Shown here in pieces: positions 22,416 through 63,769 of a stretch of DNA of 64,000 nt. Each line of letters begins with the position of its first letter. Within the stretch, counting starts at the first letter, position 1. Origin of the DNA: Bdellovibrionota bacterium (GTDB taxonomy: Bacteria; Bdellovibrionota_C; UBA2361; JAAYZI01); NCBI GenBank assembly GCA_050950765.1, contig JBMNIF010000001.1:140-64139 (forward strand). Reading direction: 5' to 3'. Under the pieces are notes generated by a model. That model saw only the letters and a list, made by a program, of their open reading frames with translations, made no database searches and had not been told where the DNA came from. The position numbers and the translations under genes are program-made.

Positions 22416-22652
22416 AACAAAGTCCGATCTTATTTTTTATGTAAAACATTGATAAAAAGTTATGCGGTGATATCGCAAAAATTACTGAAATGTTGTGTGT
22501 TTTTTCTTGGAAAACAGAAAATAGATAAAAAAAGGGAGACTTACGTCTCCCCATAAAACCTAAATAAATCCTAAAAAATCCTTTATCACTGAAGATATAA
22601 CTCTTAGAGAGTGTCTTGCAATATTAAGGGAGAAAAAATTTTATTAAAAAGT

Positions 22653-30909: not shown

Positions 30910-31379
30910 AAAAAGCCTTTTAGAAAAGAATTTACACGAGGTGTTTTTTAGTAAATAGATCGAAGCGGTGCAAGCAAAACTTCGAATATATGCAAGTATT
31001 TATCAAAAATACATAAAAATCAAATATTTATCTTGGTGGATCACAATCTTTTTAAATGTTGATTAGGGGGAGTGGTTATTAGAGTAGGGAGCCCTTAATT
31101 ATTTAAAGAAAAATTAAGGCATACGGTTTTTTAAAGGAAGTTGTAAAAATGATCGATGCGGAAAAAGATCTTGCAAAGATAAGGTCTGAAAAGTGCCAGC
31201 TAATCGTAGCAAAACTTCCGTTGCTGCTGATTATCACTTTAACAATGTGTTGCTTGATCGGTGTTTGTGGAAACTTGTTGTATACAGGAAAACTTTCAGA
31301 TCTAAACGCTTCATTTTTTATCACGGATGAGTCATATCACAACGTTGCTACTACCCTTTCCCGTATCAGATACTCCAAG

Positions 31380-31612
31380 TAATTTTTTCTACTACCACTC
31401 TTTTCTGTATCAGATACCCCAGATGTTTTTTTCTCACTAACTTTTTACGACAACAAAGTTGTTATTCAAATTTTTTCCTCACCGACTTTTTATGACAAAA
31501 AAATTGTCATCCCTTTTTTCCTCACCGACTTTTTCTGTATCAGATGCTTTAGGCGTTTTTTTCCACACCACATCTTTTCTGTATCAGATGTTTTTGTGTT
31601 GCTCTCTTTTCT
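31380..31612. repeat. tandem array (5 x ~43-45 bp) of the ACAAC/GTTGT repeat family, in reverse orientation relative to 7125-7345
   Basis: Units such as tttttacgacaacaaagttgttattcaaa are the reverse complement of the 7.2-kb units. Confidence 0.8.
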
Positions 31613-33010: not shown

Positions 33011-33039
33011 ATTTTAAGCACACTTTTTAAAAGCTTTTA

Positions 33040-33235
33040 GCTGAAGGTGGTGTCGTAGATATTTCTAAGAGCGCTTTTAAAAAACTTCTTCTTCTACACA
33101 GTGAAGAGAGATTATAATTTTGATTTTTTAGCGCAGACAGTTTTTTAAAAGCTTTTAGCTGGAGGTGGTGTCGTAGATATTTCTAAGAACGCTTTTAAAA
33201 AACTTCTTCTTATATTTCAAAGCCAAAAACTTCAA
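33040..33235. repeat. two ~70-bp direct repeats separated by ~45 bp
   Basis: Visible duplication downstream of folKP; the unit ttttaaaagcttttagctgaaggtggtgtcgtagatatttctaagagcgcttttaaaaaacttcttctt contains the TAAAAGCTTTTA palindrome. Confidence 0.75.
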
Positions 33236-34479: not shown

Positions 34480-34660
34480 TCGGATGGTATCGCGAGGAGA
34501 ACAGAGAAAAACCTTTATATTAAAGTGAACTTCCCCGTCCTGATCAGTTTTACTCATCAGGACAGGTAAGTTATCTCTTCTTCTGATAAAAAATATTTTT
34601 AAAGATCGGTCTAATTGTATACAACGATTGTACACGATAACTTTTGTGTTAATCAAATTG
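34480..34660 (-). promoter_or_regulatory. conserved structured 5' leader element (copy 2) with a promoter-like TTGATT-N18-TACAAT and a 10-bp stem hairpin
   Basis: About 85% identical to 35560-35724; hairpin ctgtcctgat/atcaggacgg. Confidence 0.45.
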
Positions 34661-35559: not shown

Positions 35560-35724
35560 AGAGGACACTTTGATAAAAGAAACCCTTATATTTAAAGTGA
35601 ACTTCCCTGTCCCGATCAGCTTTACTCATCAGGGCAGGTAAGTTATCTCTTCTTCCGATTAAGTAATATTTTTAAAGATCGATACCATTCTATTAATTGT
35701 ATACTATTACTTTTGTTATTCAAA
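35560..35724 (-). promoter_or_regulatory. conserved structured 5' leader element (copy 1) with a near-consensus sigma-70 promoter TTGAAT-N16-TACAAT and a hairpin (ctgccctgat/atcgggacag)
   Basis: Minus-strand reading of 35697-35724 gives ttgaataacaaaagtaatagtatacaat; the hairpin and ~150 nt of flanking sequence are conserved with copy 2. Confidence 0.45.
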
Positions 35725-35805
35725 TTAAAAACGGCGCTCACCTACTTTTTTACATAAAAACGGAAAGGAGTTCCAAAAAAGAGCTTTTTATGAGATGCTT
35801 GGAGG

Positions 35806-40689: not shown

Positions 40690-40880
40690 AGATTTACGAA
40701 AAGAGGTTTAAAGCGATAAGGGGAGAGGTGAGCACAATCGGACTGTGCATGTTTGGAAAAATGGCTAAAACCTTTTTTACGAAAAGAGGTTTAAAGAAAG
40801 AAGGGGAGAGGTGAGCGCGGTTGAACTGTGCATGTTTGGAAAAATGGTTAAAACCCTTTTACGAAAAGAGGTTTAAAGCC
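40690..40880. repeat. about 2.5 tandem copies of a ~75-bp unit (ttttacgaaaagaggtttaaag...ggggagaggtgagcrc.rtyg.actgtgcatgtttggaaaaatggytaaaacc)
   Basis: Direct repetition visible between two convergent genes. Confidence 0.8.
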
Positions 40881-45346: not shown

Positions 45347-45474
45347 ATAGGTGCTGCTTCAGCTTTTCTCTTAAAACATAAAAATATGAAATAAGATATT
45401 TGCGAATCAAAGGAGAAAGGTGTTTATTTAGCTTAAACGGAAGGTATGCAACAACTTTAATTGGACTAAGCAAA

Positions 45475-46368
45475 ATGAAGTTTGATAAGAATTATATTAA
45501 CTTATTTTTTTCAGCCATCTGTTTTGGTCTCATCATCTTTGGTGGTGATGTTATGAAAAGAAACGGATTCTCGCTTTTTGAGGTCCTAGCTGTTCCAGTT
45601 ATTATTATCTCTCTTTTTACTTTCCCCGTTGCCAGAAAAGATTTTGGAAAAATTTTAAGGTGCAATCCTATTATCTGTATTTTTTATTGTCTCTGTTCGA
45701 CAGTAGCTTGTTTTGGGCAATTTGCCGCTATATTTAGTGGCTTATCAGTTTCTCTTACAGCATTCCTACTTTATACACAGCCTCTTTGGACGATCATGCT
45801 TGGTGTGTTATTTTTTCATGAACGGTTAAAAAAAATAGATGTTTTAATCGTTACTATTATGATTCTTGGATTAGTGTTCTTAATCCAACCGTGGAAGGAT
45901 TTCTCATATTCAATAGCAGGTGTGCTGTGGGGGTTGTCATCTGGTATCTTAATGTCGGTATGGATCATTTTAAGTGCATATTTTTCTAAGAGAGATGTTC
46001 ATCCGATCTCGTTAGTATTTTTTTCCTATTCATGTATGCTTATACCATTATTGATAGTAGTTCTTTTCTTCTCTTCCCAATTGGAGCCCCATCCGGAACT
46101 TTATAAATTTACGTTTTTTACAATGGGTTGGAAAAAAATTACTTGTGTCGTCTTATATGCCATCTTCGCATATGTGCTGGGTAATTATTTATTTTTTAAG
46201 GCATCCAAAACAATCCCGAGCATTCATTTAGGGCTTTTTGTTTTGATGGAGCCCATAGTTGCAACAATGCTTGATGTTATTTTTCTAGGTACATCTTTAA
46301 CCTTAAATGCAATCGTTGGAAGTTCACTTATTTTATTGGGAAATATCTTAATAGTGTTGAAAGAATAG
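45475..46368 (+). CDS. EamA/DMT-family transporter, tandem copy 1
   Basis: Ten hydrophobic segments; start set at MKFDKNY by homology with copy 2. Confidence 0.6.
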   Translation: MKFDKNYINLFFSAICFGLIIFGGDVMKRNGFSLFEVLAVPVIIISLFTFPVARKDFGKILRCNPIICIFYCLCSTVACFGQFAAIFSGLSVSLTAFLLYTQPLWTIMLGVLFFHERLKKIDVLIVTIMILGLVFLIQPWKDFSYSIAGVLWGLSSGILMSVWIILSAYFSKRDVHPISLVFFSYSCMLIPLLIVVLFFSSQLEPHPELYKFTFFTMGWKKITCVVLYAIFAYVLGNYLFFKASKTIPSIHLGLFVLMEPIVATMLDVIFLGTSLTLNAIVGSSLILLGNILIVLKE

Positions 46369-46582
46369 GGCGGTGTAGCAATCTAGTGCTCCTCTGGCAA
46401 TCAGTTGAAATAAAATTTATTGCCAATTATGGAACGAAGCGTTATTACACACAAAAAATAGAATAAAAAATTGTGTCAAAACGTAAAAATATGAAATAAG
46501 ATATCTGCGAATAAAAGGAGAAAGGTGTTTATTTAGTTAGGTAAAACAAAAGCATACAGCAGCTTTAATTGGACTAAGCAAG

Positions 46583-47473
46583 ATGAAGTTTGATAAGAAT
46601 TATATTATTTTAATTTTATCAGCTATCTGTTATGGCCTCATCACTTTTGGTGGCGGTGTTATGAGGCAAAATGGATTTTCACTTTTTGAAGTATTGGCTT
46701 CTGCAATTGTTATCGTGCCTCTTCTTACTTTTTCAGTTGCTAGAAAAGGTTTTAAAAATTTTTTTAAGTGTAATATTTTTATCTGTATTTTATTTTGCCT
46801 CTCTTCAACATTATCTTTTATAGGAGAGCTCGCCCCTCTGTTTTGTGGCTTATCAGTTTCTCTTACAGCATTTTTACTTTATACACAGCCTCTTTGGACG
46901 ATCATGCTTGGAGTGTTGTTTTTTCATGAACGGTTAAAAAAAATAGATGTTTTAATCGTTACTATTATGATTCTTGGATTAGTACTCTTAATCCAACCGT
47001 GGAAGGATTTCTCATATTCAATAATAGGTATATTTTTAGGGCTATTGGGAGGTATTTCACTGTCAGGATGGGTCATTTTAAGCGCGTATTTTTCTAAGAG
47101 AGATGTTCATCCGATGACGCTAGTATTTTTTACATATGCCTGCATGATACCGCTATTATTTATTGTTTTTCTCCCCCCCCCCCAATTAGGATCATATCCA
47201 GAACTCTTTAAGCTTACATTTTTCACAATGGGTTGGAAAAAAAATACCTATGTCATCTTATATGTCATCGTTGCATATGTGCTGGGTAATTATTTATTTT
47301 TTAAGGCATCCAAAACAATCCCGAGTATTCATTTAGGGTTTTTTATTTTGATGGAGCCCATAGTTGCAACAATGCTTGATGTTATTTTTCTAGGTACATC
47401 TTTAACCTTAAATGCAATCGTTGGAAGTTCACTTATTTTATTGGGAAATATCTTAATAGTGCTGAAAGAATAG
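46583..47473 (+). CDS. EamA/DMT-family transporter, tandem copy 2 (carries an in-frame C11 tract)
   Basis: Roughly 75% identical to copy 1 including ~60 bp of upstream sequence; homopolymer C11 at 47173-47183 encoding PPPQ. Confidence 0.6.
   Translation: MKFDKNYIILILSAICYGLITFGGGVMRQNGFSLFEVLASAIVIVPLLTFSVARKGFKNFFKCNIFICILFCLSSTLSFIGELAPLFCGLSVSLTAFLLYTQPLWTIMLGVLFFHERLKKIDVLIVTIMILGLVLLIQPWKDFSYSIIGIFLGLLGGISLSGWVILSAYFSKRDVHPMTLVFFTYACMIPLLFIVFLPPPQLGSYPELFKLTFFTMGWKKNTYVILYVIVAYVLGNYLFFKASKTIPSIHLGFFILMEPIVATMLDVIFLGTSLTLNAIVGSSLILLGNILIVLKE
47173..47183 (+). repeat. homopolymeric C11 tract within the EamA copy-2 coding sequence
   Basis: Counted directly in the sequence (ctcccccccccccaatt). 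Confidence 0.9.
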
Positions 47474-47584: not shown

Positions 47585-48583
47585 ATGAAAAATTTTTTTG
47601 AACATCAAGAAAAAGCCAAAAACTATACGTTCTATCTATTGTTGTGTTGTCTTGTTACAACAATAATCACAGCTCTTACCGTATCTCACGGAGTGTTGGG
47701 TCTTTTTTTATGCCTCGATAATAGTGAAGATATCAATTTATATTCGCAAGATTATCATCAGGCGATAGTTTTAATAAGTTGCATAGTAGTATTTATAATC
47801 TGTTGTGGTTCTCTTTATAAGATCTTTCAACTGTCAAAAGGTGGAAAAGTTGTCGCTAAATTATTGGGTGGTACTTTAATTCCGACAGACACGCAGGATC
47901 CAAAGTTAAAAATGGTTTTAAATGTTGTGGAAGAGATGGCTATCGCTTCCAGTATTCAAACCCCTCCCGTTTATTACCTTCCGAAAGAAGCTGGAATAAA
48001 TGCCTTTGCCGCTGGATTTTCTACTGAAGATGCCATTGTTGCAGTAACTCAAGGTTGTATCGATAATCTATCTCGTGATGAGTTGCAGGGGGTGATCGCA
48101 CACGAGTTTAGCCATATCTTTAATGGTGATATGCGTTTGAATATCCGATTGATGGGGCTTGTTCATGGGTTTTTGCTACTGTATTTAATCGGATGGTCAA
48201 TATTAAGATTTATGCCACGCACAAGAAAGCGTGATAGTGATAGTAAAAGTGGTGCGCTTGTTTTTATTGTAGCTGTTGCGCTGCTTTTAATCGTTCTGGG
48301 CTCTATAAGCGCCTTTTTGGGGAATATAATCAAAGCCTCTATCTCTAGGCAGAGGGAGTTTTTAGCAGATGCGACTGCCGTGCAGTATACCAGAAACCCC
48401 GAAGGGATAGGAGGTGCCTTGAAAAAAATTCAGCTTTTAGCTGAAGGGTCTGAAATTAAAGCGCCTCATGCAAAAGAGGCAAGCCATATGTTCTTCTCGA
48501 ATAATTTTAATGGTCTCTGCAAACGGCTATTAGCTACGCATCCGCCATTAGAGGAGCGTATTCAAAGAATACTTACGCGCTAA
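47585..48583 (+). CDS. HtpX-like M48 family zinc metallopeptidase, paralog 1
   Basis: HEFSHIFNGD (HExxH), TM helices flanking it, C-terminal HPPLEERI; the M48/HtpX layout. Confidence 0.75.
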   Translation: MKNFFEHQEKAKNYTFYLLLCCLVTTIITALTVSHGVLGLFLCLDNSEDINLYSQDYHQAIVLISCIVVFIICCGSLYKIFQLSKGGKVVAKLLGGTLIPTDTQDPKLKMVLNVVEEMAIASSIQTPPVYYLPKEAGINAFAAGFSTEDAIVAVTQGCIDNLSRDELQGVIAHEFSHIFNGDMRLNIRLMGLVHGFLLLYLIGWSILRFMPRTRKRDSDSKSGALVFIVAVALLLIVLGSISAFLGNIIKASISRQREFLADATAVQYTRNPEGIGGALKKIQLLAEGSEIKAPHAKEASHMFFSNNFNGLCKRLLATHPPLEERIQRILTR

Positions 48584-52103: not shown

Positions 52104-52676
52104 CTAAAACTGCACCTTTGGTGCTTGATAAACCTCTTTTTCCTCTGCTTGATCTAACTCAAACAGATCTTGTTCCCTAAAGTTAAATAAATTAGCTATA
52201 AGAACATCAGGAAATTGTTGAATGGCGGTGTTGTATATCACAACTTGATTATTGTACTGCCGCCTACTCAAGCTTATTTTATCTTCGGTATCACGCAGCT
52301 CTTCCTGCAATTGTAAAAAAACAGTATTTGCTTTTAAATCGGGATAACTTTCAGAGAGTGCGAAGAGTTGTCTTAACGCTCCGGATAGGGCGTTTTCAGC
52401 CTGAATTTGCTGTCCGATATTTTGAGAATTGGTCACAGTTGTTGCAGCGTTTCTTGCAGCAATAACGGCTTCGAACGTTTCTTTTTCATGAGAGGCGTAA
52501 CCTTTGGCAACTTCAATAACGTTTGGAATTAAATCGTGCCGTCTCTTCAGCTGAACTTTAATTTGCGACCACGATCCCACGCAGAGATTTCGTTTTCTTA
52601 TCAAGCTGTTATAAATCCATATGATATATAACAAAATTATAACGATAGCGATGACTATTCCAGCAGTTAAAGACAT
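52104..52676 (-). CDS. lemA: LemA-family protein, copy 1
   Basis: N-terminal TM plus the conserved QLKRRHDLIPNVIEVAKGYASHEKETFEAV and QLFALSESYPDLKAN blocks. Confidence 0.8.
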   Translation of the reverse strand: MSLTAGIVIAIVIILLYIIWIYNSLIRKRNLCVGSWSQIKVQLKRRHDLIPNVIEVAKGYASHEKETFEAVIAARNAATTVTNSQNIGQQIQAENALSGALRQLFALSESYPDLKANTVFLQLQEELRDTEDKISLSRRQYNNQVVIYNTAIQQFPDVLIANLFNFREQDLFELDQAEEKEVYQAPKVQF

Positions 52677-52714
52677 TAGAATCTCCTTTGCAAAAAAAGG
52701 AATTATAAACCGGT

Positions 52715-52815
52715 AGTATCAACAAGTTAGCGCACGGTTATGCCGATAATACTCCCTTTTATGTTCTATATTATTTAGCAGAGATGCGCCAGCCGCTATT
52801 ATAAGTTACTGTGCG
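52715..52815. repeat. direct repeat T1, left copy (~110 bp); pairs with 58670-58795
   Basis: The shared core aagttagcgcacggtt...atgccgataatac.c.tttatgttctatattatt.agcagagatgc is in the same orientation on the + strand in both copies. Confidence 0.75.
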
Positions 52816-52948
52816 AGTAGATAAAAAACAAACTTCCGAAGGCAAGCCTTGCCAAAGACTGGAACAAAAACCTCACAAAGACTGGAATGAAAAGTCTACA
52901 AAGACTGGAATGAAAACTCCACAAACACTGGAATGAAGATTGCGCTAA
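52816..52948 (+). promoter_or_regulatory. conserved upstream element T2, copy 1 (13-bp palindrome ggcaagccttgcc plus 3-4 x 21-bp subrepeats acaaagactggaatgaaaa)
   Basis: About 90% identical to 54438-54570; lies immediately 5' of the DUF4143 ATPase gene. Confidence 0.6.
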
Positions 52949-53009
52949 TACTTGAAAATACGATATACCTTCTTTAGGCTTCTTCGTTTTGAAAGTGAGA
53001 TGTGGTTTA

Positions 53010-54280
53010 TGAAAAAGTATTTGCCGAGAATTATAGATAAATTATTGCGTGAAAGATTAGAAGCTAAAGGGGCAGTTTTATTAGAAGGTCCTAAATGGTG
53101 CGGAAAGACTACGAGTGCTAAAGAGATAGCGGGTAGTTTTATATCAATGGATCAACCTGAAATGAGTGGGCAGTATCAATCTATGGCTGAACTCTCTCCA
53201 CTAACACTATTAGAAGGCAAGCCTCCGAGATTAATAGACGAGTGGCAGATAGCTCCAAACTTATGGAATGCCGTTAGATATGCTGTCGATGAAAGAGATG
53301 AATTTGGTCAATTCATTTTAACAGGCTCTGCCGTCCCTGCACAAATAGATGAGTCCATGCATACTGGCACGGGGAGAATTTCAAGACTTTATATGAGACC
53401 TATGAGCTTGTATGAGTCTAAGGATTCAAATGGCAAAGTTTCAATCGGAAACTTGTTTGCAAATAAGAAAATATCTACTAAAAGCGATACCGACTTAGAA
53501 GAAATAGCATTCCTAATTTGCAGGGGAGGCTGGCCAAAAGCGGTTGGTTTAGCCGAAAAGCAGGCTCTTTTTCAGGCAATAGATTATTTTGATGCCATCA
53601 TATCGACCGATATAAGTAGGGTAGATTCTGTGAAAAGAGATAAGGAAAAAGCAAAAAGATTTCTAAAATCTTATGCAAGAAATGTCGGAACTAGAGCTAC
53701 CCTAGAGACTATTAGACAAGATGTATTGTCTAATCATGCAGACACTTTCGACTCTGCTACGCTCTATTCATATAGAGATGCACTAACTAAAATCTTTGTT
53801 ATTGAAGATGCGCCAGCTTGGAATCCGAACTTGAGATCAAAGGTTGCTATTAGAACGACGGATGCAAGATATTTTGTTGACCCTTCAATCGCTGCAGCCG
53901 CTTTACAACTTGGTCCAAAAGATCTGTTAAACGATTTAAACACTTTTGGGCTTATCTTTGAAAATTTGTGTTTCCGTGATTTAAGAATATACGCAGACTA
54001 TCTAGATGGCGATGTCTATCAGTATAGAGATAGTAGTGGATTAGAATGCGATGCGGTAATTCACTTAAGAGACGGCTCTTATGGTCTAATTGAAATAAAA
54101 TTAGGAGGCGACACCTTAATTGAAGAAGGAGCAAAAAACTTACTAGACCTAGCCTCAAGGATAGATACAAACAAAATGAAAGAGCCTGCTTTTATGCTTA
54201 TTTTATGCGCCAAAGCTCCCTTTGCATATCAGAGAAAAGACGGGATTTGTGTGGTTCCTATAACTAGTTTAAAACCATAA
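53010..54280 (+). CDS. AAA+ ATPase with a DUF4143 C-terminal domain (COG1373-like), copy 1
   Basis: Walker A GPKWCGKTT and Walker B LIDEWQ; family-typical start MKKYLPRIIDKLL; start chosen at the internal Met at 53010. Confidence 0.7.
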
Positions 54281-54437
54281 ACCCCCCAAAAAAACTCCTC
54301 CTTAGTTTTAAGTGTAAAATTTCAATTATATAACTTATTGAAATAATTTATAAAAAGTTAAAAATCGATCCTTTAAGGTGATTGTAGCCCTTAAAAAACA
54401 TAGCATACGTAAAATAAGAAAAAAGTCTTAGAATTAG

Positions 54438-54570
54438 ATAAAAAATAAACTTCCGAAGGCAAGCCTTGCCAAAGACTGGAACAAAAACCTCACAAATACA
54501 GGAATGAAAAGTTCACAAAGACTGGAATGAAAACTCTACAAAGACTGGAATGAAAGCCCGTCAAACACTG
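54438..54570 (+). promoter_or_regulatory. conserved upstream element T2, copy 2
   Basis: Same palindrome and subrepeats as 52816-52948. Confidence 0.6.
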
Positions 54571-54804
54571 AAAGTTTCTAAAAAATTCTCTAAGCTTAAG
54601 CTTTGAAGCGATATCTCCCTTTTCATCATTTTAGGTTTTTTCTAAATATTTTTATATCAATCCCAGCTAGGTTCCTAACATACTGAAAAGATTAGATTGT
54701 TTTCTTTTGAAATTATAAAAAGACACTATCAAGTATCTTGCTTGCTACTACATTAGGTATATTTTAAGTAAAAATTACATAAACTTAGATAAAAAACTAA
54801 AATC

Positions 54805-54905
54805 TAACGGGATATAAATTAGAAATTTGACCGAATGAGAATTGGAAATTTGACCGATTATAAATTAAAAATTTGACCGAATAGGAATTGAAAATTTGAC
54901 CGATT
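54805..54905 (+). repeat. four iteron-like ~22-bp direct repeats (aaatttgaccgawt...)
   Basis: agaaatttgaccgaatg / gaaatttgaccgatta / aaaatttgaccgaatag / aaaatttgaccgattt, immediately upstream of the second DUF4143 ATPase. Confidence 0.7.
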
Positions 54906-54935
54906 TATGTTGTCTTTCTTTTTGGGAGATAAGTT

Positions 54936-56207
54936 ATGGATAGTCGATACTTGCCAAGATTAGTAGATAAATTAGTTGAGCTTAATTTAAAAGCCTTTGG
55001 GGCAATTTGTATTGAAGGTGCTAAATGGTGCGGGAAAACTTGGACATCAAGGTACCATTCTAAAAGTGCTATATATTTAGGAGACCCGAGCGAGAATTTT
55101 CAAAATAAAGAACTGATGCAATTAGCACCTAAAATAGCTTTAGATGGAGAAACTCCAAGATTAATAGACGAGTGGCAGGAACTCCCTTCTGTTTGGGATA
55201 CGGTAAGGCATGAAGTCGACAAGAGGGGGAAAAAAGGACAATTTATTTTAACAGGTTCATCAACACCAGTGCAAAAAGGTGTACTACATAGTGGAGCTGG
55301 AAGAATTTCTACTATTAGAATGAGACCCATGTCTTTATTTGAATCAAACGATTCATCTGGGCAAGTTTCTTTGCAGTCAATTTTTGATGGAACATTTGAA
55401 GCGGTAGCTCCCCCTAAAATCAATTTGCGGACGCTTATAGAGCTAACCGTTCGAGGTGGTTGGCCAGGTAGTTTAGGTTTGAGTTATGAAGAGTATAGTA
55501 TAATCCCTAAAGAATATATAAGTTCGATAATAAACCATGATATTTATAGATTAGAAGGAATCAATAGAAATTCAAAGAAGATGCATCGCTTATTAAAATC
55601 TCTTGCGAGAAATGAGTCGACAGTGGCTTCAATATCTACTTTAAGAGAGGATGTTAAAGAATATGAGAACGATGCTCTCGATAATGATACGATCTCGGCA
55701 TATTTAACTATATTTGAAAGATTGTTTTTAATCGATAATCAGAAAGCTTTTTCAAGTAATATAAGATCTGCAACTCGTATTAAGCAGGCAGATAAGAGAC
55801 ATTTTGTAGACCCCTCTTTAGCTATCGCCTTATTAGATGCAAGTTATGAAGACTTGTTAAACAATTTAAACGGATTTAGTTTTATGTTTGAGGCTCTTTG
55901 TGAGAGAGATTTAAGGATATATGCAGAAAGTTTAGGAGGTAAATTATATCATTATCAAGATTATAAGAACAGGGAAATCGATGCGATTGTAGAGTTAAAA
56001 GATGGTAGGCTTGGAGCTTTTGAAATTAAATTAGGGGTGGAGGCTGTTGATAATGCAGCAAAGTCGTTAATAGAAATAAGGGATGCTCTAAAAGCCGAAG
56101 GCTCTAACAGGCTAGATGTTTTAGTTGTAATCTCTGGTCTAAGTAATTTTGCCTATCGCAGGGAAGATGGGGTCTATGTCGTGCCGATTACAACGTTAAG
56201 ACCTTAA
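54936..56207 (+). CDS. AAA+ ATPase with a DUF4143 C-terminal domain, copy 2
   Basis: GAKWCGKTW Walker A and LIDEWQ Walker B; collinear with copy 1 but only moderately similar. Confidence 0.7.
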   Translation: MDSRYLPRLVDKLVELNLKAFGAICIEGAKWCGKTWTSRYHSKSAIYLGDPSENFQNKELMQLAPKIALDGETPRLIDEWQELPSVWDTVRHEVDKRGKKGQFILTGSSTPVQKGVLHSGAGRISTIRMRPMSLFESNDSSGQVSLQSIFDGTFEAVAPPKINLRTLIELTVRGGWPGSLGLSYEEYSIIPKEYISSIINHDIYRLEGINRNSKKMHRLLKSLARNESTVASISTLREDVKEYENDALDNDTISAYLTIFERLFLIDNQKAFSSNIRSATRIKQADKRHFVDPSLAIALLDASYEDLLNNLNGFSFMFEALCERDLRIYAESLGGKLYHYQDYKNREIDAIVELKDGRLGAFEIKLGVEAVDNAAKSLIEIRDALKAEGSNRLDVLVVISGLSNFAYRREDGVYVVPITTLRP

Positions 56208-56330: not shown

Positions 56331-56636
56331 ATGGAAAAATATTTTAGTGCAGAAGATAAAGTCAAGATACTCAAGGAGCATATGCTAGGTGAAGTGCCAG
56401 TATCGAACTTATGTGAAAAATACGGAATAAACGCTGATACATTTTATGAATGGCAAAATTTATTATTTGAAGGAGCCATTCAAAACTTTAAGCATAAAAA
56501 GCGAGGTTCAAAAAAAGCTAAGAAGCAAATTGAACGGATAGATACTTTGGAGAAGAAAATAGCGAAGAAAGATTCCGCGCTAAAGGAGCTGTTGAAACTT
56601 CACATAGATCTAAAGAAAAAGCTCGGAGAGTTCTAA
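56331..56636 (+). mobile_element. IS3-family transposase OrfA (HTH) remnant; no OrfB follows
   Basis: VKILKEHMLGEVPVSNLCEKYGINADTFYEWQ HTH and a leucine-zipper tail typical of IS3/IS911 OrfA; the next ORF is unrelated. Confidence 0.6.
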
Positions 56637-56793
56637 CAGATCATGAAGCTAAGCTGCAAATACGAGATAAGAGGTGATAGACTTTGTAGGTAAATGATAT
56701 AAGAGATCTGGTCAGAAGCAGGCTAAATGTGCTTTGCTTTTATTAAAGTGCAAATATAAACAAAAAGATGTTTTTATAAGAAAGGGAAGATCT

Positions 56794-58482
56794 ATGAAAA
56801 TTGCTTCGGTTAAAATAAAGAATTTTAGAAGCTATAAAGATGAGGTAACCGTTGATTTTGAAAATTTAACGGTATTTGTAGGGAAAAATGATTCTGGAAA
56901 ATCAACGATTTTAGAAGCACTAGATATATTTTTTAACGACGGAAAAGGGCTAGGCGTAACGAAGCTAGATGAAAACGATATAAATGTTGAGAACAAAAAA
57001 GCTGAAGATGGAGATAATGAGATCGAAATAACGGTCGTGTTTAAAGATTTGCCAGAAAAATTAATAATTGATGCCACCGTTGAAACTACTTTAGAAAAAG
57101 AGCATTTGTTAAATGGCGATAAATTAGAAATAATTAAAAGATATAAAAACGCAGGTACTCCGAAAATTTGGATTAGAGCTAATCACCCTACTAATCCTAA
57201 TTGTTCAGACTTATTATTAAAAAAACAAAATGAGTTAAAAAAAATTATTGAAGATAACAATATTGATTGCTCAGATCGGTCAGTTAACTCCGTGATGCGT
57301 GAAGCCATTTGGAAGCATTATGAAGATGATCTTAAATTAGATATTAAAGAAATAGATGTATCTAAGGAAGACGCAAAACAGATATGGGAAAAAATAAATG
57401 CTTGCTTACCAGCTTATTCATTATTTAAATCTGATAGACAAAATACCGATAGCGATTCTGAAGTGCAAGATCCGTTAAAAAATGCGGTAAATATGATTTT
57501 TAAAGAAGATAATATTATAAATAAATTAGATGAGATTGCTAAAGAAGTTAAAGAGCGATTAGAAGATGTATCTAGTAGGACATCAAAAAAGTTAGAAGAT
57601 TTTGATAAAAAAATAGCTGAAGAATTAAAGCCTGTGATACCACCAACAGACAAACTTGCTTGGAGTAGTGTATTTAAATCAGTTTCTATTTTTGGAGATA
57701 ATATTCCAATTAATAAAAGGGGAAGTGGTGTAAAAAGACTTATTTTATTAAGTTTCTTTAGAGCAGAGGCAGAAAGGCAAGCACAAGAAAATAAAAAAAC
57801 AAAAAATGGCGTTATATATGCCATAGAAGAACCTGAAACATCACAACATACAAATAATCAAAAAATTTTAATAGAAGCTTTAAAGAGTTTATCAGACAAA
57901 GAAAATATTCAAGTGATATTAACTACTCATAGTGCTTTTATAGTAAAACAGCTAGATAAACTAGATAGAGAAAAAGCCGCTAAAGATGGTGCAAAACAGC
58001 CAGATTTTTCAAATATAAGGATCGTAAATAAAAAAGAAGACAATAAAGGGAGAATTTCAAAAGTTGAAAAAAGTAGTCTTACATATCCATCATTAAACGA
58101 AGTTAATTTTTTGGCTTATGATGAGACTAGTATTGAATATCATAATGAGCTGTACGGGGCGTTGGAGTCTATGTATAGAGAATATAAGGAAAAGAAGGAA
58201 GATGAGAAAGAAAGAAGTTCCTTTAATAGTTGGTTAAAAAATGAATTAGAAGAGGCAAAGGTAAATGATGTTGAATTGGATAAGGATTACTTTAACGATT
58301 TGTGGAAAAAGCAGGAGAAGACTACTTTACCTACTTATATTAGACATATGATTCATCATCCTGAAAATAAAAAAAATGAAGAGTATACCCCAAATGAATT
58401 AAAAAGGTCGATTGAATTACTAAGAGAAGTTCTTAATATGCAGAAATTAAAAAACGATAAGGAAAGGAGGATCTGTAAATAA
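56794..58482 (+). CDS. stand-alone OLD / ABC-type (AAA_15/AAA_21-like) ATPase with an uncharacterised C-terminal domain
   Basis: N-terminal IKNFRSYKD...VFVGKNDSGKSTILEALD (Walker A), Walker B/D-loop IYAIEEPETSQH, H-loop LTTHSAFIV. The ~185-aa Lys/Glu-rich C-terminus has no Toprim motif that I can recognise. aagggaag RBS before the chosen start. Confidence 0.65.
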   Translation: MKIASVKIKNFRSYKDEVTVDFENLTVFVGKNDSGKSTILEALDIFFNDGKGLGVTKLDENDINVENKKAEDGDNEIEITVVFKDLPEKLIIDATVETTLEKEHLLNGDKLEIIKRYKNAGTPKIWIRANHPTNPNCSDLLLKKQNELKKIIEDNNIDCSDRSVNSVMREAIWKHYEDDLKLDIKEIDVSKEDAKQIWEKINACLPAYSLFKSDRQNTDSDSEVQDPLKNAVNMIFKEDNIINKLDEIAKEVKERLEDVSSRTSKKLEDFDKKIAEELKPVIPPTDKLAWSSVFKSVSIFGDNIPINKRGSGVKRLILLSFFRAEAERQAQENKKTKNGVIYAIEEPETSQHTNNQKILIEALKSLSDKENIQVILTTHSAFIVKQLDKLDREKAAKDGAKQPDFSNIRIVNKKEDNKGRISKVEKSSLTYPSLNEVNFLAYDETSIEYHNELYGALESMYREYKEKKEDEKERSSFNSWLKNELEEAKVNDVELDKDYFNDLWKKQEKTTLPTYIRHMIHHPENKKNEEYTPNELKRSIELLREVLNMQKLKNDKERRICK

Positions 58483-58669
58483 TTTTGTGTATTTTGCTAT
58501 TTCAGGACTGTGTTAACAGCTAAATTATATTTCTAAAGTAGTGATGTAGCTGAATCAAGTATCCACTAACATCAACCCTCCCCTCTAGGTTGATACCAAA
58601 AGCCCCTCTCTTCTTTATAGCTTATCATGTGGGGGCGTATTTGCCCCAGAAAATGGATTATAAGCCGCT

Positions 58670-58795
58670 GGAATCAATAAGTTAGCGCACGGTTTAGTTT
58701 ACGTACTGGTATGCCGATAATACCTCTTTTATGTTCTATATTATTCAGCAGAGATGCCTAGCCGGTATTATAAAACCGCACCTCTTCAGGTTGCT
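58670..58795. repeat. direct repeat T1, right copy
   Basis: See 52715-52815. Confidence 0.75.
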
Positions 58796-58888: not shown

Positions 58889-59479
58889 TTGGTGGACATT
58901 ACTCTGACTTTATGTCTCATTATTGTAATTTTGTTGGTAATTAAAATTTACAACAAACTTATACGTCTTCGGAATATTTGTAGAAATTCATTTTCACAAA
59001 TAGATGTACAACTAAAGAGGCGACACGATTTAATCCCTAATTTAGTTGAAGTTACAAAAGGCTACATGAAATATGAAAGAGAAACGTTCGAAGCCGTTAT
59101 TAAAGCACGGAATGAAGCAACTTCAGCTATAAAAGAGCTAAATTCAAAGCGGTTACTGAGTGCAAATGCTATGGCAGGGGTGGCAGGAGCTGAAAGCAAT
59201 TTAAACAACGCTTTATCGCAGCTGTTTGCGTTAGTAGAGGGGTATCCCGAACTTAAAGCAAATGAGGCGATGCAAAATTTAATGGAGGATCTACGCTCCA
59301 CCGAAAATAGAATCGCTTTTGCCAGACAGGTTTATAATGATGCTGTTATGAATTACAACACTAGGTGCGAACTCTTCCCTCATTTTTTTGTGGCGAAGCT
59401 ATTTAATTTTTCAACGGCTCCTCTCTTTGAATTAGATAATGAAAGTGAACGAGCAGCGATTAATCTTACCTTTTCATAA
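58889..59479 (+). CDS. lemA: LemA-family protein, copy 2
   Basis: Same conserved blocks as copy 1 (QLKRRHDLIPNLVEVTKGY, QLFALVEGYPELKAN); opposite orientation. Confidence 0.8.
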   Translation: MVDITLTLCLIIVILLVIKIYNKLIRLRNICRNSFSQIDVQLKRRHDLIPNLVEVTKGYMKYERETFEAVIKARNEATSAIKELNSKRLLSANAMAGVAGAESNLNNALSQLFALVEGYPELKANEAMQNLMEDLRSTENRIAFARQVYNDAVMNYNTRCELFPHFFVAKLFNFSTAPLFELDNESERAAINLTFS

Positions 59480-61466: not shown

Positions 61467-62595
61467 TCACCATATTCCCCTGCATACAAATCTATAATGA
61501 GGTGTACCTACGGAATAGCGAAGCTAGTACTGACATACTTATGGACTATTTCGATCCAGTAATGGCTCCATTAAGTTGGATAGTGGCATTATTAATCTGC
61601 GGCAGCACCCTTTATAAAATCTTTCAATTATCAAAAGGCGAAAACGTTGCTAAATTATTAGGTGGCGTTTTAATTCCGACAGATACGCAGGAACCGAAGT
61701 TTAAAATGATCTTGAATGTTGTAGAAGAGATCTCCGTTGTTTCAGGTATTAAGCCACTTCCTGTTTATTACCTTCCAGAAGAAAAGGGGATAAATACATT
61801 TTCTGCCGGATCCTCTACTGAAAATGGTGTCATTACAGTAACGCAAGGGTGTATCGATAATCTATCTCGTGATGAGTTACAGGGGGTGATCGCACATGAA
61901 TTTTGCCATATCTTTAATGGTGATATGCGCTTAAATGTTCTGTTGATAGGGCTTATTTATGGACTTTCCCTGCCAATGTCTATGGGAAAGGGGATATTTG
62001 AATTTCTAAAGAATTTTAATAAGCGTATTAACAAAAAAGAAAACATAGTGATTACTTTAATTATAATCGGTATCACAGGTGGCATCTTAGGGAGTACGTT
62101 GGCGTTATTCTTTTGTGGTGCTATGAGCTACTTTTGCAGTATGCAAGCTAAAGCTTCTGTCACTAGGCATAAGGAGTTTTTAGCAGATGCTACCGCTGTG
62201 CAGTATACCAGAAACCCTGAAGGGATAGGGGGTGCCTTAAGAAAAATTATGGTTCTACCTGAAGGATCTGAAATTAAATCGCCTCATGTAAAAGAGATAA
62301 ACCACATGCTCTTTGCAAACTATTCTAACGACCCTCACAAAGGGGATAGGGATTTAGCTACGCATCCACCATTAGAAGAACGGATTAAAAGAATATTTGA
62401 GGTAGAGTATTAAAACCTAAGATGATCTTAGTGTGAGAGAAGTGGTGTTGTTTGGGAGTAGATTAGGTGTTTTTAATATTGCAGACACCTTTTTGTGGCT
62501 GCTATCAAAGTGCGGAATAAAGTAACTTCAACCATAAAGGAACTAATTCAGCGCTTACTCTTTGATAGATAATTTTCTTCGATGATACACGTGAG

Positions 62596-63648
62596 ATGGC
62601 AAGTTTTTTAAAATATCAAAAAAGAGTTAAGGAAGAAACTGTCGGCGCATTGTTGTTCTACGTTGCTGTAATAATGTTTACGGCTTTTCCTCTGCCTGGT
62701 TTAACCGTGTATTTCTTTGTAAGTTTTTATAATGAGGTCTACTTACGGAATGATAAAGCTAGCACTTCCGCACTTATGGATTATGTTGATCCAATAATGG
62801 TTCCTCTAGCTTGCATAATGGTACTATTAATCTGCGGCAGCACCCTTTATAAAATTTTTCAATTATCAAAAGGCGAGAGCATTGCTAAATTATTAGGTGG
62901 TGTTTTAATTCCGACAGATACGCAGGAACCGAAGTTTAAAAAGATTTTGAATATTGTAGAAGAGATCTCCGTTGTTTCAGGTATTAAGCCACTTCCTGTT
63001 TATTACCTTCCGAAAGAAGCTGGGATAAATACATTTTCTGCGGGATCCTCTATTGAAAATGGTGTCATTACAGTAACACAAGGGTGTATCGATAATCTAT
63101 CTCGTGATGAGTTGCAGGGGGTGATCGCACATGAATTCAGTCATATCTTTAATGGTGATATGCGTTTAAATGTTCTGTTGATAGGACTTGTTCACGGACT
63201 TGAGCTACCATTATATATGGGAGCGACATTACTTAAATCCGTGTGGAATCTAAATAAGCGCGTCAATAAAAAAGGAAGTATCGTAGTTGCTTTAATTATA
63301 ATCGTTGTTACAGGCGGCATCTTAGCGACAGGGGGAGCGTTAATCTATATTGGTCTTGGGAGCTACTTTTGTAGTTTACAAGCTAAAGCCGTTGTCACTA
63401 GGCATAAGGAGTTTTTAGCAGATGCTACCGCTGTGCAGTATACCAGAAACCCTGAAGGGATAGGGGGTGCCTTAAGAAAGATTATGCTTTCACCCGACGG
63501 ATCTAGAATTGAATCGCCTCACGCAAAGGAGATAAACCACATGTTCTTTGCAAACTATTCTAACGACCCTTACATAAGACATCGAGATTTTGCTACGCAT
63601 CCACCATTAAGAAAACGGCTTAAGAGGATATTTGAGGTAAGGTATTAA
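62596..63648 (+). CDS. HtpX-like M48 family zinc metallopeptidase, paralog 3 (intact)
   Basis: HEFSHIFNGD HExxH motif; closely similar to the disrupted paralog and to 47585-48583. Confidence 0.75.
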   Translation: MASFLKYQKRVKEETVGALLFYVAVIMFTAFPLPGLTVYFFVSFYNEVYLRNDKASTSALMDYVDPIMVPLACIMVLLICGSTLYKIFQLSKGESIAKLLGGVLIPTDTQEPKFKKILNIVEEISVVSGIKPLPVYYLPKEAGINTFSAGSSIENGVITVTQGCIDNLSRDELQGVIAHEFSHIFNGDMRLNVLLIGLVHGLELPLYMGATLLKSVWNLNKRVNKKGSIVVALIIIVVTGGILATGGALIYIGLGSYFCSLQAKAVVTRHKEFLADATAVQYTRNPEGIGGALRKIMLSPDGSRIESPHAKEINHMFFANYSNDPYIRHRDFATHPPLRKRLKRIFEVRY

Positions 63649-63769
63649 AACTTAAGATGACTCGTCACCATCCACCTATAAAGGTTCTATCTCAAGAAGA
63701 AACAGAAAACATTCAAGCTAAGAGAGAGCAAAAAAAAATTAAGTTGCAAAAGCCGAGTAAGCGGATGCG

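What the first reader, a model, noticed from the sequence alone, without database searches (positions are those of the whole stretch)
52816..54570. Upstream elements of two DUF4143 ATPase paralogs are far better conserved than the genes themselves
The ~130-bp elements at 52816-52948 and 54438-54570 are roughly 90% identical. Each contains a perfect 13-bp palindrome (ggcaagccttgcc) and three to four 21-bp direct subrepeats (acaaagactggaatgaaaa[g/c]t). The two ATPase ORFs behind them are only moderately similar. Non-coding DNA that outlasts divergence of its coding paralogs implies purifying selection, for example an operator array for a shared regulator. Alternatively the elements move or recombine independently of the genes, as cassette-associated sites like attC would. 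Either explanation is unusual for a family annotated only as AAA+ ATPase of unknown function.
Basis: seen in the sequence. Interest (0 to 1): 0.6.

Follow-up and report, generated by a model that had tools for sequence, protein, structure and literature searches.

The report
Iteron-like repeat arrays of DUF4143 ATPases
The two near-identical 120-base elements are two copies of a 23-base-period repeat array that belongs to the first ATPase gene only, and nearly every DUF4143/PDC-S01 ATPase gene I examined carries its own version of such an array in front of its promoter, most likely as the docking and self-regulation site for the protein it encodes.

Summary
The sequence observation is real. 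52818-52937 and 54435-54554 are 113/120 identical. Each holds the palindrome GGCAAG-C-CTTGCC and 4-5 direct repeats, with a period of 23 bp, not 21. The two ATPases are 41% identical.

The framing is wrong. Element B lies 158 nt downstream of ATPase1 and 366 nt upstream of ATPase2. ATPase2 has its own, different 23-bp x4 array (AAATTTGACCGA, 54823-54914) in the position that element A holds for ATPase1.

In 42 non-redundant DUF4143 loci the best upstream self-similarity period is exactly 23 in 35. It is 23 in 0 of 138 control upstreams. Each lineage has its own repeat sequence, array similarity tracks protein identity, and the arrays abut the core promoter.

Element B is followed by a decayed leader and TTG-AAG-CGA-TAT-CTC-CCT (MKRYLP, the family's N-terminus). 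It is therefore the stump of a third, truncated cassette, recently copied from or homogenised with A.

Best explanation: these are iteron-like operator arrays bound by the gene's own AAA+/winged-helix/PD-(D/E)XK product. That step is inferred, not shown. No paper found by the six searches made in the held library mentions the array.

The parts
52818..52852 (+). Left part of element A: TAGATAAAAAA (52818-52828), then CTTCCGAAG and the palindrome GGCAAG-C-CTTGCC (52841-52853).
   Evidence: This block is shared with B (one mismatch). It is absent from the orthologous cassettes L026 and L028.
52853..52967 (+). Array A: five 23-bp direct repeats starting at 52853, 52876, 52899, 52922 and 52945. The core is CAAAGACTGGAAT. 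The fifth unit (CTAATACTTGAAAA) is embedded in the putative promoter.
   Evidence: The array is homologous to those before ATPase1 orthologues in L026, L028, L043 and L051.
52940..52969 (+). Putative promoter of ATPase1: TTGCGC, 18 nt, TATACC (read by eye). The orthologue L028 has TTGCGC-18-TATAAT at the same place.
   Evidence: Inferred; the consensus scan did not list it.
53009..54280 (+). ATPase1, 423 aa. Domains: AAA_14 plus DUF4143, read as AAA+ / winged helix / PD-(D/E)XK. It matches the PADLOC candidate PDC-S01.
54435..54469 (+). Left part of element B: TAGATAAAAAA (54435-54445) and the palindrome (54458-54470).
54470..54584 (+). Array B: five 23-bp repeats starting at 54470, 54493, 54516, 54539 and 54562. 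Units 1-4 fall within the 94% copy of A. Unit 2 has a degenerate core. Unit 5 (CAAACACTGAAAG) has diverged, and the TTGCGC -35 box is absent.
54603..54620 (+). Relic of an ATPase start: TTG AAG CGA TAT CTC CCT = MKRYLP. Compare ATPase1 MKKYLPR and ATPase2 MDSRYLPR. It opens a 27-codon dead-end ORF (54603-54686).
   Evidence: [KR]YLP occurs 6 times in the six-frame translation of the 64 kb, so the chance of one falling at this spot is about 1e-3. No further ATPase coding remnant was found.
54786..54914 (+). Element C, the cognate array of ATPase2. It starts with TAGATAAAAAA (54786-54796). One degenerate unit (54800) is followed by four good 23-bp units of AAATTTGACCGA at 54823, 54846, 54869 and 54892.
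   Evidence: The array is homologous to the one before the ATPase2 orthologue L026b.
54936..56207 (+). ATPase2, 423 aa, AAA_14 plus DUF4143 (PDC-S01). It is 41% identical to ATPase1.
52695..52804 (+). X1, the left copy of a roughly 110-125-nt direct repeat that brackets the whole ATPase/AAA_15 block (context).
58650..58773 (+). X2, the right copy of the bracketing repeat (context).

Best explanation
Elements A and B are two copies of the cis-element of one gene, ATPase1. That gene belongs to the DUF4143/AAA_14 family (COG1373, PADLOC candidate PDC-S01), whose proteins combine an AAA+ ATPase, a winged helix and a PD-(D/E)XK nuclease.

Shown:
- Genes of this family form self-contained cassettes. 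Each has 3-6 direct repeats with a strict 23-bp period, starting about 130 nt before the ATG and abutting or overlapping the -35 region of the gene's own promoter.
- The repeat sequence is specific to each protein lineage and diverges in step with the protein.
- A is this array for ATPase1, and C (54823-54914) is the one for ATPase2.
- B is the 5' stump of a third, truncated ATPase1-like cassette: array, decayed leader and the first six codons (MKRYLP).

Inferred:
- B's first 120 nt were recently copied from A or homogenised with A by gene conversion.
- Each repeat is bound by the winged helix of one protomer of the encoded ATPase, so a head-to-tail oligomer assembles along the array and controls (most likely represses) its own promoter, as Rep proteins do on iterons.
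- The invariant 23-bp spacing is about 2.2 helical turns, or roughly 60-75 degrees of rotation per site. This would fit a helical AAA+ assembly.
- B may still bind ATPase1 protein and so act as a titrating site, but it is not a standard part of the system.
For: Anatomy.

Cognate arrays in orthologues:
- ATPase1-type arrays sit at fixed offsets (first repeat at -122, last at -53) in L026, L028, L043 and L051.
- The C-type array precedes the ATPase2 orthologue L026b.

Family-wide signature:
- The best period among 8-45 bp is exactly 23 in 35 of 42 non-redundant DUF4143 upstreams. These come from metagenome contigs, plasmids of Bacteroides, Collinsella, Prosthecochloris, Lentilactobacillus, Thioclava, Spartinivicinus, Azotobacter and Mycobacterium, and IMG/VR contigs.
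- Mean self-identity is 0.72 at period 23, against 0.43 at 22 and at 24.
- Controls: 0 of 84 and 0 of 54 other gene upstreams have best period 23.

Arrays are homologous and co-diverge with the protein:
- The phased family profile is gCCAAAt..CCGAAT plus an A/T spacer. Its information content is 7.7 bits, against 4.06 +/- 0.27 in permuted controls.
- Array similarity against protein identity gives Spearman 0.53, reached by 0 of 1000 permutations.
- Repeat cores are better conserved than spacers (0.85 against 0.65 identity; 1.53 against 0.64 bits).
- The change is concerted. All four upstream repeats of the window read CTGGAAT, while all orthologues read CTTGAAy.

Promoter placement: the Bacteroidota TAnnTTTG box or a TATAAT-like box lies just 3' of the last repeat.

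DNA-binding capacity: the AF2 model (pLDDT about 90 for residues 130-423) has a three-helix, two-strand winged helix at 212-289, followed by a nuclease core with invariant D348, E362 and K364. Foldseek hits include Fur/MarR winged helices, Card1/NucS/restriction enzymes, archaeal AAA+ ATPases and Cdc6/Orc1.

The specificity factor must lie in the cassette: co-resident arrays in one genome differ (window A against C; L026 a, b and c), and the only gene in each cassette is the ATPase.

B as a stump:
- MKRYLP relic.
- The right flank is weakly similar to A's leader (0.57 against 0.49 +/- 0.03).
- Precedent: in L051 the same array, promoter and MKTYLPK are fused to a GNAT gene.
- Extra arrays are rare, found in 2 of about 38 loci.
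Against: - No binding or expression data exist. Protein-array recognition is inferred from co-variation and co-location, which shared ancestry alone would partly produce.
- The winged-helix assignment rests on a predicted model with modest Foldseek probabilities. The AAA+ part of the model has low confidence.
- The A/B mismatches do not avoid the repeat core, so there is no sign that B is under selection.
- The relic reading of B depends on six codons and a borderline flank similarity.
- Five of the 7 loci that the automatic test missed show weaker 23-bp arrays by eye, one (L059) was not resolved, and one (L057/58) shows none.
- Archaeal members were not sampled.
- The palindrome shared by A and B is unexplained and is absent from orthologous cassettes.
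Confidence: 0.6

Rival explanations
1. A and B are operators for one shared regulator of both paralogs, kept nearly identical by purifying selection while the genes diverged.
For: - The identity is high and confined to the 120-nt core, with unrelated flanks.
- Both elements lie on the coding strand, 5' of an ATPase gene.
Against: - ATPase2 has its own, different array at the canonical position. B lies 366 nt away.
- The ATPase2 orthologue in L026 has only the C-type array, and the ATPase1 orthologues have only A-type arrays.
- Mismatches hit the core as often as the spacer.
- B is followed by a relic ATPase start.
Confidence: 0.07
2. The arrays are recombination or mobility sites. The cassette, running from the array to the stop codon, moves or is shuffled as a unit, possibly through the encoded ATPase-nuclease. 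A/B and the L051 fusion would then be footprints of that activity.
For: - Homology between orthologous cassettes in four different genomic contexts starts at the first repeat and ends within 1 nt of the stop codon. The ATPase2 pair runs from -113 to +7.
- Proteins 76-90% identical are found in MAGs labelled as different phyla. COG1373 is listed among horizontally shared genes (PMC10782964).
- Two independent truncations or fusions break within one codon of each other, after YLP and after YLPK.
- The nuclease motif is intact.
Against: - There is only one array per cassette, and it is made of direct repeats. No second end or target duplication was seen.
- No recombinase or transposase is consistently linked.
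- The arrays overlap promoters, which a regulatory role explains more simply.
- Homology that ends at the stop codon is also what different contexts plus unconstrained flanks would give.
- Closer pairs share 200-290 nt upstream.
Confidence: 0.13
3. B is a functional second array rather than a relic. It would titrate or 'handcuff' ATPase1 protein, as incA does downstream of repA in plasmid P1. Alternatively it would place ATPase2 under the control of ATPase1.
For: - Three of B's units keep perfect cores, and they score like A's units with A's matrix.
- The core is 94% identical while the leader has decayed.
- The geometry, a gene flanked by like arrays, resembles P1 incC-repA-incA (my own knowledge).
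Against: - A second array is rare, found in 2 of about 38 loci.
- There is no selection signature in the mismatches.
- The relic start codon region behind B points to a decayed cassette.
Confidence: 0.15
4. The periodicity reflects something other than binding by the ATPase. Candidates are a host factor site, an UP-element or curved-DNA promoter architecture, or a structured RNA leader.
For: The spacers are A/T-rich and the arrays lie next to promoters.
Against: - Core sequences differ between co-resident cassettes and across phyla while the 23-bp period stays fixed.
- A period of 23 bp is out of phase with helical-repeat curvature (about 21 bp).
- There is no Rfam hit and no folding signal on either strand.
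Confidence: 0.05

Closest known systems
Iterons and Rep autoregulation in theta-replicating plasmids (R6K, RK2, pPS10; P1 incC-repA-incA). From my own knowledge.
   Same: - Three to seven direct repeats with a period of about 22-23 bp lie next to, and overlap the promoter of, the gene whose winged-helix product binds them.
- Repeat sequence is specific to each protein lineage.
- In P1 a second array lies downstream of the gene.
   Different: - The adjacent protein is an AAA+/winged-helix/PD-(D/E)XK protein, not a Rep (WH1-WH2) initiator.
- The cassettes are chromosomal, and several different ones can sit in tandem.
- No origin features were examined or are implied.
- Binding has not been shown.
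Archaeal Orc1/Cdc6 with ORB elements, and DnaA boxes at the dnaA promoter. From my own knowledge.
   Same: An AAA+ protein with a winged-helix (or HTH) DNA-binding domain has repeated recognition sites next to its own gene. It oligomerises on them and regulates itself.
   Different: - There is no Pfam Cdc6_C or Bac_DnaA match, and the Foldseek similarity to Cdc6/Orc1 is weak (E 0.46).
- These proteins carry a C-terminal nuclease.
- The repeats are strictly direct and evenly spaced at 23 bp.
PADLOC candidate defence system PDC-S01 (DUF4143/COG1373).
   Same: - Both ATPases match the PDC-S01 models over their full length (E 1e-60).
- The domain make-up, an ATPase plus PD-(D/E)XK, is as described in PMC12988326 and PMC3424549.
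- The locus sits beside an AriA/OLD/GajA-like ATPase and IS genes.
   Different: - Published descriptions concern the protein only. None of the papers found by my searches mentions an upstream repeat array.
- Defence activity is unproven. The one member tested gave no protection against T4, T5 or T7 (10.1101/2024.09.26.614923).
Integron attC sites
   Same: These are short non-coding elements associated with single-gene cassettes that occur in tandem and in different contexts.
   Different: - attC sites are imperfect inverted repeats located 3' of the ORF, and they act with an IntI integrase and an attI site.
- Here the elements are direct repeats located 5' of the ORF, inside the promoter region.
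- No integrase was found among the neighbours scanned.

Membership tests
DUF4143/AAA_14 ATPases (COG1373; PADLOC PDC-S01), applied to the two proteins | Pfam AAA_14 (PF13173) and DUF4143 (PF13635) both above their gathering scores. | tested here: met
   DUF4143 at 104 bits (cut-off 28.1) and AAA_14 at 52 bits (cut-off 27), for both proteins.
DUF4143/AAA_14 ATPases (COG1373; PADLOC PDC-S01), applied to the two proteins | Full-length match to a PDC-S01 profile. | tested here: met
   PDLC04790 at E 1.1e-59 and 3.4e-61, covering residues 1-421.
DUF4143/AAA_14 ATPases (COG1373; PADLOC PDC-S01), applied to the two proteins | PD-(D/E)XK catalytic motif in the C-terminal domain. | tested here: met
   - D348, E362 and K364 are invariant in 11 diverse and 48 closer sequences.
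- Foldseek hits include Card1, NucS and restriction enzymes.
- DUF4143 is listed in the PD-(D/E)XK superfamily (PMC3424549).
DUF4143/AAA_14 ATPases (COG1373; PADLOC PDC-S01), applied to the two proteins | Anti-phage activity. | not testable with these tools
   PDC-S01 has candidate status only. The single member tested was negative (10.1101/2024.09.26.614923).
Family-wide 23-bp upstream array (the signature proposed here), applied to elements A, B and C | At least three direct repeats with an exact 23-bp period, ending within about 10-90 nt of the start codon of a DUF4143 gene. | tested here: met
   A and C meet it. B meets the array part but is followed only by a 6-codon relic.
Family-wide 23-bp upstream array (the signature proposed here), applied to elements A, B and C | The repeat sequence matches that of orthologous cassettes elsewhere. 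| tested here: met
   A and B match L026a, L028, L043 and L051. C matches L026b.
Family-wide 23-bp upstream array (the signature proposed here), applied to elements A, B and C | Bound by the encoded ATPase. | not testable with these tools
   This needs EMSA, footprinting or ChIP. It is inferred.
Integron attC | Imperfect inverted repeats (R''-L'' / L'-R') that fold into a hairpin, located 3' of the cassette ORF. | tested here: not met
   The elements are direct repeats. The only palindrome is 13 bp. There is no folding signal on either strand. The canonical position is 5' of the ORF.
Integron attC | A linked IntI tyrosine recombinase and attI site. | tested here: not met
   No integrase among the ten neighbouring ORFs scanned across 48.8-61.3 kb. 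The rest of the window was not scanned.
Plasmid iterons | Direct repeats of 17-23 bp with a period of about 22 bp, next to the gene of the protein that binds them. | tested here: inconclusive
   The geometry is met. Binding is untested.
Plasmid iterons | The adjacent gene encodes a Rep initiator, and the array forms part of a replication origin. | tested here: not met
   The adjacent gene is AAA_14+DUF4143. Several cassettes lie in tandem on chromosomal contigs.
Structured RNA or riboswitch | A match to an Rfam family, or folding energy better than shuffled sequence. | tested here: not met
   Searches gave no match. In one search the z-scores ran from -0.9 to +0.8.

The most novel reading that the evidence does not exclude
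The 23-bp array is more than an operator. It would be the assembly track of a helical AAA+/winged-helix/nuclease oligomer that defines an autonomous, horizontally mobile cassette running from the first repeat to the stop codon. The junction just after the conserved YLP(R) codons would be a recurrent breakpoint. Through it the array-promoter module is captured by other genes (the GNAT fusion in L051) or left behind as stumps (element B). If so, one of the most abundant uncharacterised 'defence candidate' families would be a new kind of self-targeted, self-propagating gene cassette.
Probability: 0.13. Interest if true: 0.85.

Novelty: new variant of a known kind. Interest (0 to 1): 0.65.

Why it matters
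DUF4143/COG1373 (PDC-S01) is reported as the fourth most common candidate defence gene in prokaryotes, with tens of thousands of copies (PMC12988326), and it has no known mechanism.

A strictly spaced, lineage-specific repeat array in front of essentially every member examined gives the family three things:
- a predicted DNA ligand for each protein;
- a likely mode of self-regulation;
- a geometric constraint (23 bp per protomer) on how the protein assembles.

This makes the function directly testable with gel shifts, reporter fusions and cryo-EM on defined DNA. It also gives annotators a simple signature for finding intact, truncated and captured cassettes.

For this window in particular, it replaces an apparent paradox (non-coding DNA more conserved than its genes) with an ordinary explanation: a recent copy of one gene's array.

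Tried and rejected
- **DNA pattern scans for further copies.** The pattern AAGACTGGAA-N13-AAGACTGGAA was scanned in genome contigs and metagenome contigs, and the palindrome plus first repeat in viral contigs. They returned only unrelated tandem repeats or nothing. blastn of element A against plasmids and phages found nothing.
- **Structured RNA.** Rfam gave no match at the gathering or E<=1 thresholds, and RNA folding of both strands gave no signal.
- **Terminator reading of the palindrome.** The scan found no terminator, and the 1-nt centre leaves only a 5-bp stem.
- **Promoter scan.** The consensus scan was uninformative, so promoters were read by comparison across loci instead.
- **Coding remnant of an ATPase body between B and C.** tblastn found none beyond RYLP.
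- **Homology among the three post-stop 'tails'.** None was found, z about 0.
- **An 'empty site' or strain variants.** A look-up through LemA1 returned only contigs 100% identical to the window, several of them broken at the A/B repeat.
- **Sequence search of the PDB.** Only P-loop-level hits.
- **TAGATAAAAAA as a cassette boundary.** It precedes A, B and C, but it also occurs twice elsewhere in the window and is AT-rich. This is left as an observation.
Full report
**1. What is in the sequence**

- The two elements are real. 52818-52937 and 54435-54554 align without gaps at 113/120 (94%).
- The homology has a sharp left edge at TAGATAAAAAA. The 72 nt before it are no more alike than shuffled sequence (0.48 against 0.47).
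- Each element holds the palindrome GGCAAG-C-CTTGCC, which is found nowhere else in the 64 kb.
- Each also holds direct repeats with the core CAAAGACTGGAAT (8 matches, all in these two elements, 0.01 expected).
- The repeat period is 23 bp, not 21. Each element has four good units and a fifth degenerate one.
- The two ORFs, 53009-54280 and 54936-56207, are AAA_14+DUF4143 proteins and are 41% identical.

**2.

- Element A ends about 40 nt before the ATPase1 start.
- Element B starts 155 nt after the ATPase1 stop, and its last repeat ends 351 nt before the ATPase2 ATG.
- Directly before ATPase2 there is a third array, C (54823-54914). It has the same 23-bp period and four units, but a different sequence, AAATTTGACCGA.
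- The layout is therefore A - ATPase1 - B - C - ATPase2.

**3. Orthologous loci settle which array belongs to which gene**

- ATPase1 has homologues 76-90% identical in MAGs that their sources label as Clostridia, Myxococcota, Christensenellales, Thermoguttaceae, Levyella and Finegoldia. The 100% match is a MAG labelled Bdellovibrionota.
- I fetched contigs for several of these. In every one an A-type array (CAAAyACTTGAAy) precedes the gene at a fixed offset, with the first repeat at -122 and the last at -53.
- Locus L026 carries three DUF4143 genes in tandem.
  - The first is an ATPase1 orthologue with an A-type array.
  - The second is an ATPase2 orthologue with a C-type array.
  - The third has yet another 23-bp array.
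  - Only 145 bp separate the first two genes, and there is no B-like copy.
- Hence A and B are both ATPase1-type, and C is the ATPase2 element. The paralogs diverged long ago, each with its own array.
- The A/B identity is a young event laid over that history.
  - Between orthologues the array is not better conserved than the gene (76% against 80-83% DNA identity).
  - The seven A/B mismatches fall in repeat cores (3) about as often as elsewhere (4).
  - Neither fact suggests long-term purifying selection on B.

**4. What B is**

- B's fifth repeat (CAAACACTGAAAG) and the next ~70 nt lie outside the 94% block. They resemble A's fifth repeat and leader only weakly (0.57 identity against 0.49 +/- 0.03 for shuffles).
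- The -35-like TTGCGC of A, conserved in L028 as TTGCGC-18-TATAAT, is replaced in B.
- Forty-one nt after B's fifth repeat comes TTG AAG CGA TAT CTC CCT, which reads MKRYLP. This is the family's conserved N-terminus (ATPase1 MKKYLPR, ATPase2 MDSRYLPR).
  - The ORF dies after 27 codons.
  - [KR]YLP occurs six times in the whole six-frame translation (2.7 expected). Finding it at this spot by chance has a probability of about 1e-3.
  - No further ATPase coding remnant follows.
- B is therefore the 5' stump of a third, truncated ATPase1-like cassette. Its first 120 nt were later copied from A or homogenised with it.
- There is a precedent in L051-L053. There a second A-type array, promoter, ribosome-binding site and the codons MKTYLPK are fused to a GNAT acetyltransferase gene, 1 kb upstream of the intact cassette.
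- Such extra arrays are rare. Scanning each locus with a matrix of its own array found them only in the window and in L051.

**5. The array is a hallmark of the whole family**

- I collected 50 DUF4143 gene upstreams (42 non-redundant) from these sources:
  - the window;
  - metagenome contigs;
  - plasmids of Bacteroides, Collinsella, Prosthecochloris, Actinomyces, Lentilactobacillus, Thioclava, Spartinivicinus, Azotobacter and Mycobacterium, at 26-56% protein identity;
  - IMG/VR contigs.
- Over periods of 8-45 bp, the best three-copy self-similarity is at exactly 23 bp in 35 of 42.
- Mean self-identity is 0.72 at period 23, against 0.43 at 22 and at 24.
- Of the seven missed, five show weaker 23-bp arrays by eye, L059 was not resolved, and L057/58 shows none.
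- Controls never have a best period of 23. This holds for 0 of 54 other gene upstreams in the window and 0 of 84 in the fetched loci. The only random windows that reach the score are A, B and C.
- The arrays start about 130 nt before the ATG.
- A TATAAT-like box, or in Bacteroidota-type loci the TAnnTTTG box, follows the last repeat directly. The array therefore abuts or overlaps the -35 region.

**6. The arrays are homologous and diverge with the protein**

- Circular phasing of 31 distinct arrays gives a shared profile: an A/T-rich spacer, then gCCAAAt..CCGAAT. Its information content is 7.7 bits, against 4.06 +/- 0.27 (maximum 4.8) for column-permuted controls.
- Array similarity rises with protein identity (Spearman 0.53, reached by 0 of 1000 label permutations).
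- Within the ATPase1 clade, repeat cores are better conserved than spacers (1.53 against 0.64 bits; 0.85 against 0.65 identity between lineages).
- Changes are concerted. All four upstream repeats of the window read CTGGAAT where all orthologues read CTTGAAy. The promoter-embedded fifth unit keeps CTTGAA.
- Different arrays coexist in one genome, and the only gene each cassette carries is the ATPase. The factor that reads the repeats is therefore most simply the ATPase itself.

**7. The protein can plausibly do this**

- A 48-sequence AlphaFold2 model is confident from residue 130 onward (pLDDT about 90). It shows three helices and a two-strand wing (212-289), followed by a PD-(D/E)XK core. 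D348, E362 and K364 are invariant.
- The AAA+ part of the model is poor.
- Foldseek against the PDB returns Card1/Cdn1, NucS/EndoMS and restriction enzymes for the nuclease. It returns Fur and MarR regulators for the winged helix, and McrB, two archaeal AAA+ ATPases and Cdc6/Orc1 for the ATPase. All scores are modest.
- No solved structure is related at the sequence level.
- PADLOC classes both proteins as PDC-S01.
- Published work describes PDC-S01 as an ATPase fused to a PD-(D/E)XK domain. It ranks fourth among the most common defence candidates in prokaryotes and is unvalidated (PMC12988326). One member gave no protection against T4, T5 or T7 (10.1101/2024.09.26.614923).
- Searches for DUF4143, COG1373, PDC-S01, AAA_14 with 'direct repeats', the Pfam/InterPro accessions, and '23-bp repeats' found no paper that mentions an upstream repeat array.

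**8. Mechanism**

Shown:
- the cassette structure;
- the strict period;
- the lineage specificity;
- the promoter adjacency;
- B's nature as a stump.

Inferred:
- One protomer's winged helix binds each repeat, so a head-to-tail oligomer forms along the array and controls (probably represses) the promoter. This is how Rep proteins act on iterons, and how Orc1/Cdc6 or DnaA act on sites beside their own genes.
- An invariant 23 bp is about 2.2 helical turns. Successive sites are thus rotated by roughly 60-75 degrees, which would suit a helical AAA+ assembly. This is my own speculation.
- A self-contained regulatory module would also explain why the gene travels well between distant hosts.

**9. 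Rivals**

- The shared-regulator reading fails on array C and on L026.
- A mobility or recombination role for the array is not excluded.
  - Homology between orthologous cassettes in four contexts starts at the first repeat and ends within 1 nt of the stop codon.
  - Two independent truncations break within a codon of each other.
  - Against this, there is one array per cassette, no linked recombinase, and the array overlaps the promoter.
- B might act as a titrating or cross-regulating site, as incA does in P1. Its rarity and the relic behind it argue that it is mainly a remnant.
- RNA-level explanations are not supported.

**10. Context**

- The ATPase block, a 101-aa IS3-type HTH gene and an AriA/OLD/GajA-like AAA_15 ATPase are bracketed by a ~110-125-nt direct repeat (X1 and X2, ~77-80% identical in the two alignments, with a 16-nt indel). 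Two inverted LemA paralogs lie just outside, and a DDE transposase is nearby. This looks like a variable, defence-island-like insert.
- Sister-sample contigs are identical to the window, and several break at the A/B repeat.

**11. Verdict**

- The specific A/B puzzle has an ordinary answer: a recent copy of one gene's array on a truncated cassette.
- The general result is of real interest. A strict 23-bp, lineage-specific, promoter-abutting array precedes DUF4143/PDC-S01 genes across bacterial phyla, and no paper found by my searches describes it.

Noticed in passing
window 52695-52804 and 58650-58773: A ~110-125-nt direct repeat (X1 and X2, ~77-80% identical in the two alignments, with a 16-nt indel) brackets the whole block of two DUF4143 ATPases, an HTH gene and an AAA_15 ATPase. 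There are only two copies in the window. The block may be an inserted island.
   Followed up: partly
window 52104-52676 (-) and 58889-59479 (+): Two LemA-family paralogs in inverted orientation lie just outside the X1 and X2 repeats.
   Followed up: no
window 56331-56636 and 56734-58482: A 101-aa IS3-type HTH (orfA-like) gene sits directly upstream of an AAA_15 ATPase. The ATPase's best PADLOC matches are AriA (E 2e-73), Old and GajA. This may be a two-gene defence module beside the PDC-S01 genes.
   Followed up: partly
window 7151-7342 and 31348-31537: Tandem arrays with a 43-45-bp unit lie upstream of an RsgA-like GTPase gene and of a folK/folP fusion gene. The two arrays are inverted copies of each other (80-83% identity).
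   Followed up: partly
window 2418-2695 and 40693-40879: Two further tandem arrays, with a 61-bp unit x4.6 and an 83-bp unit x2.3. Their function is unknown.
   Followed up: no
window 45373-47473, 61493-63660 and 47775-48574: Tandem gene duplicates: 45373-46368 with 46478-47473 (84%), and 61493-62425 with 62728-63660 (85%). A more distant copy at 47775-48574 resembles 61572-62398 (73%).
   Followed up: no
window 33024-33096 / 33142-33214 and 34509-34659 / 35580-35726: Short dispersed direct repeats, 96% and 82% identical. Not examined.
   Followed up: no
window 52818, 54435 and 54786: The 11-mer TAGATAAAAAA stands at the left edge of all three arrays (A, B and C). Two other exact copies exist in the window, at 22522 and 26798.
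   Followed up: partly
L051 2780-3508 (also L052 and L053): A GNAT acetyltransferase gene carries an ATPase1-type array, promoter, ribosome-binding site and the first seven ATPase codons (MKTYLPK). The break point is within one codon of that of element B.
   Followed up: yes
L026 7188-7272: After the third tandem DUF4143 gene there is an array with a 32-bp period that runs off the end of the locus. Its downstream gene is unknown.
   Followed up: no
L090 about 880-900 and L091 about 800-840: G+C-rich hairpin-like inverted repeats (CCCTCT-N4-AGAGGG and GCCCTC-N10-GAGGGC) lie just upstream of the 23-bp arrays in two proteobacterial plasmids. They recall the palindrome before arrays A and B.
   Followed up: no
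L095 and L097 (end at window 52859), L098 (52950), L094 (54638): Contigs of the same strain from sister samples stop inside or just after the A and B arrays, as expected if the 120-nt duplicate breaks short-read assemblies.
   Followed up: yes
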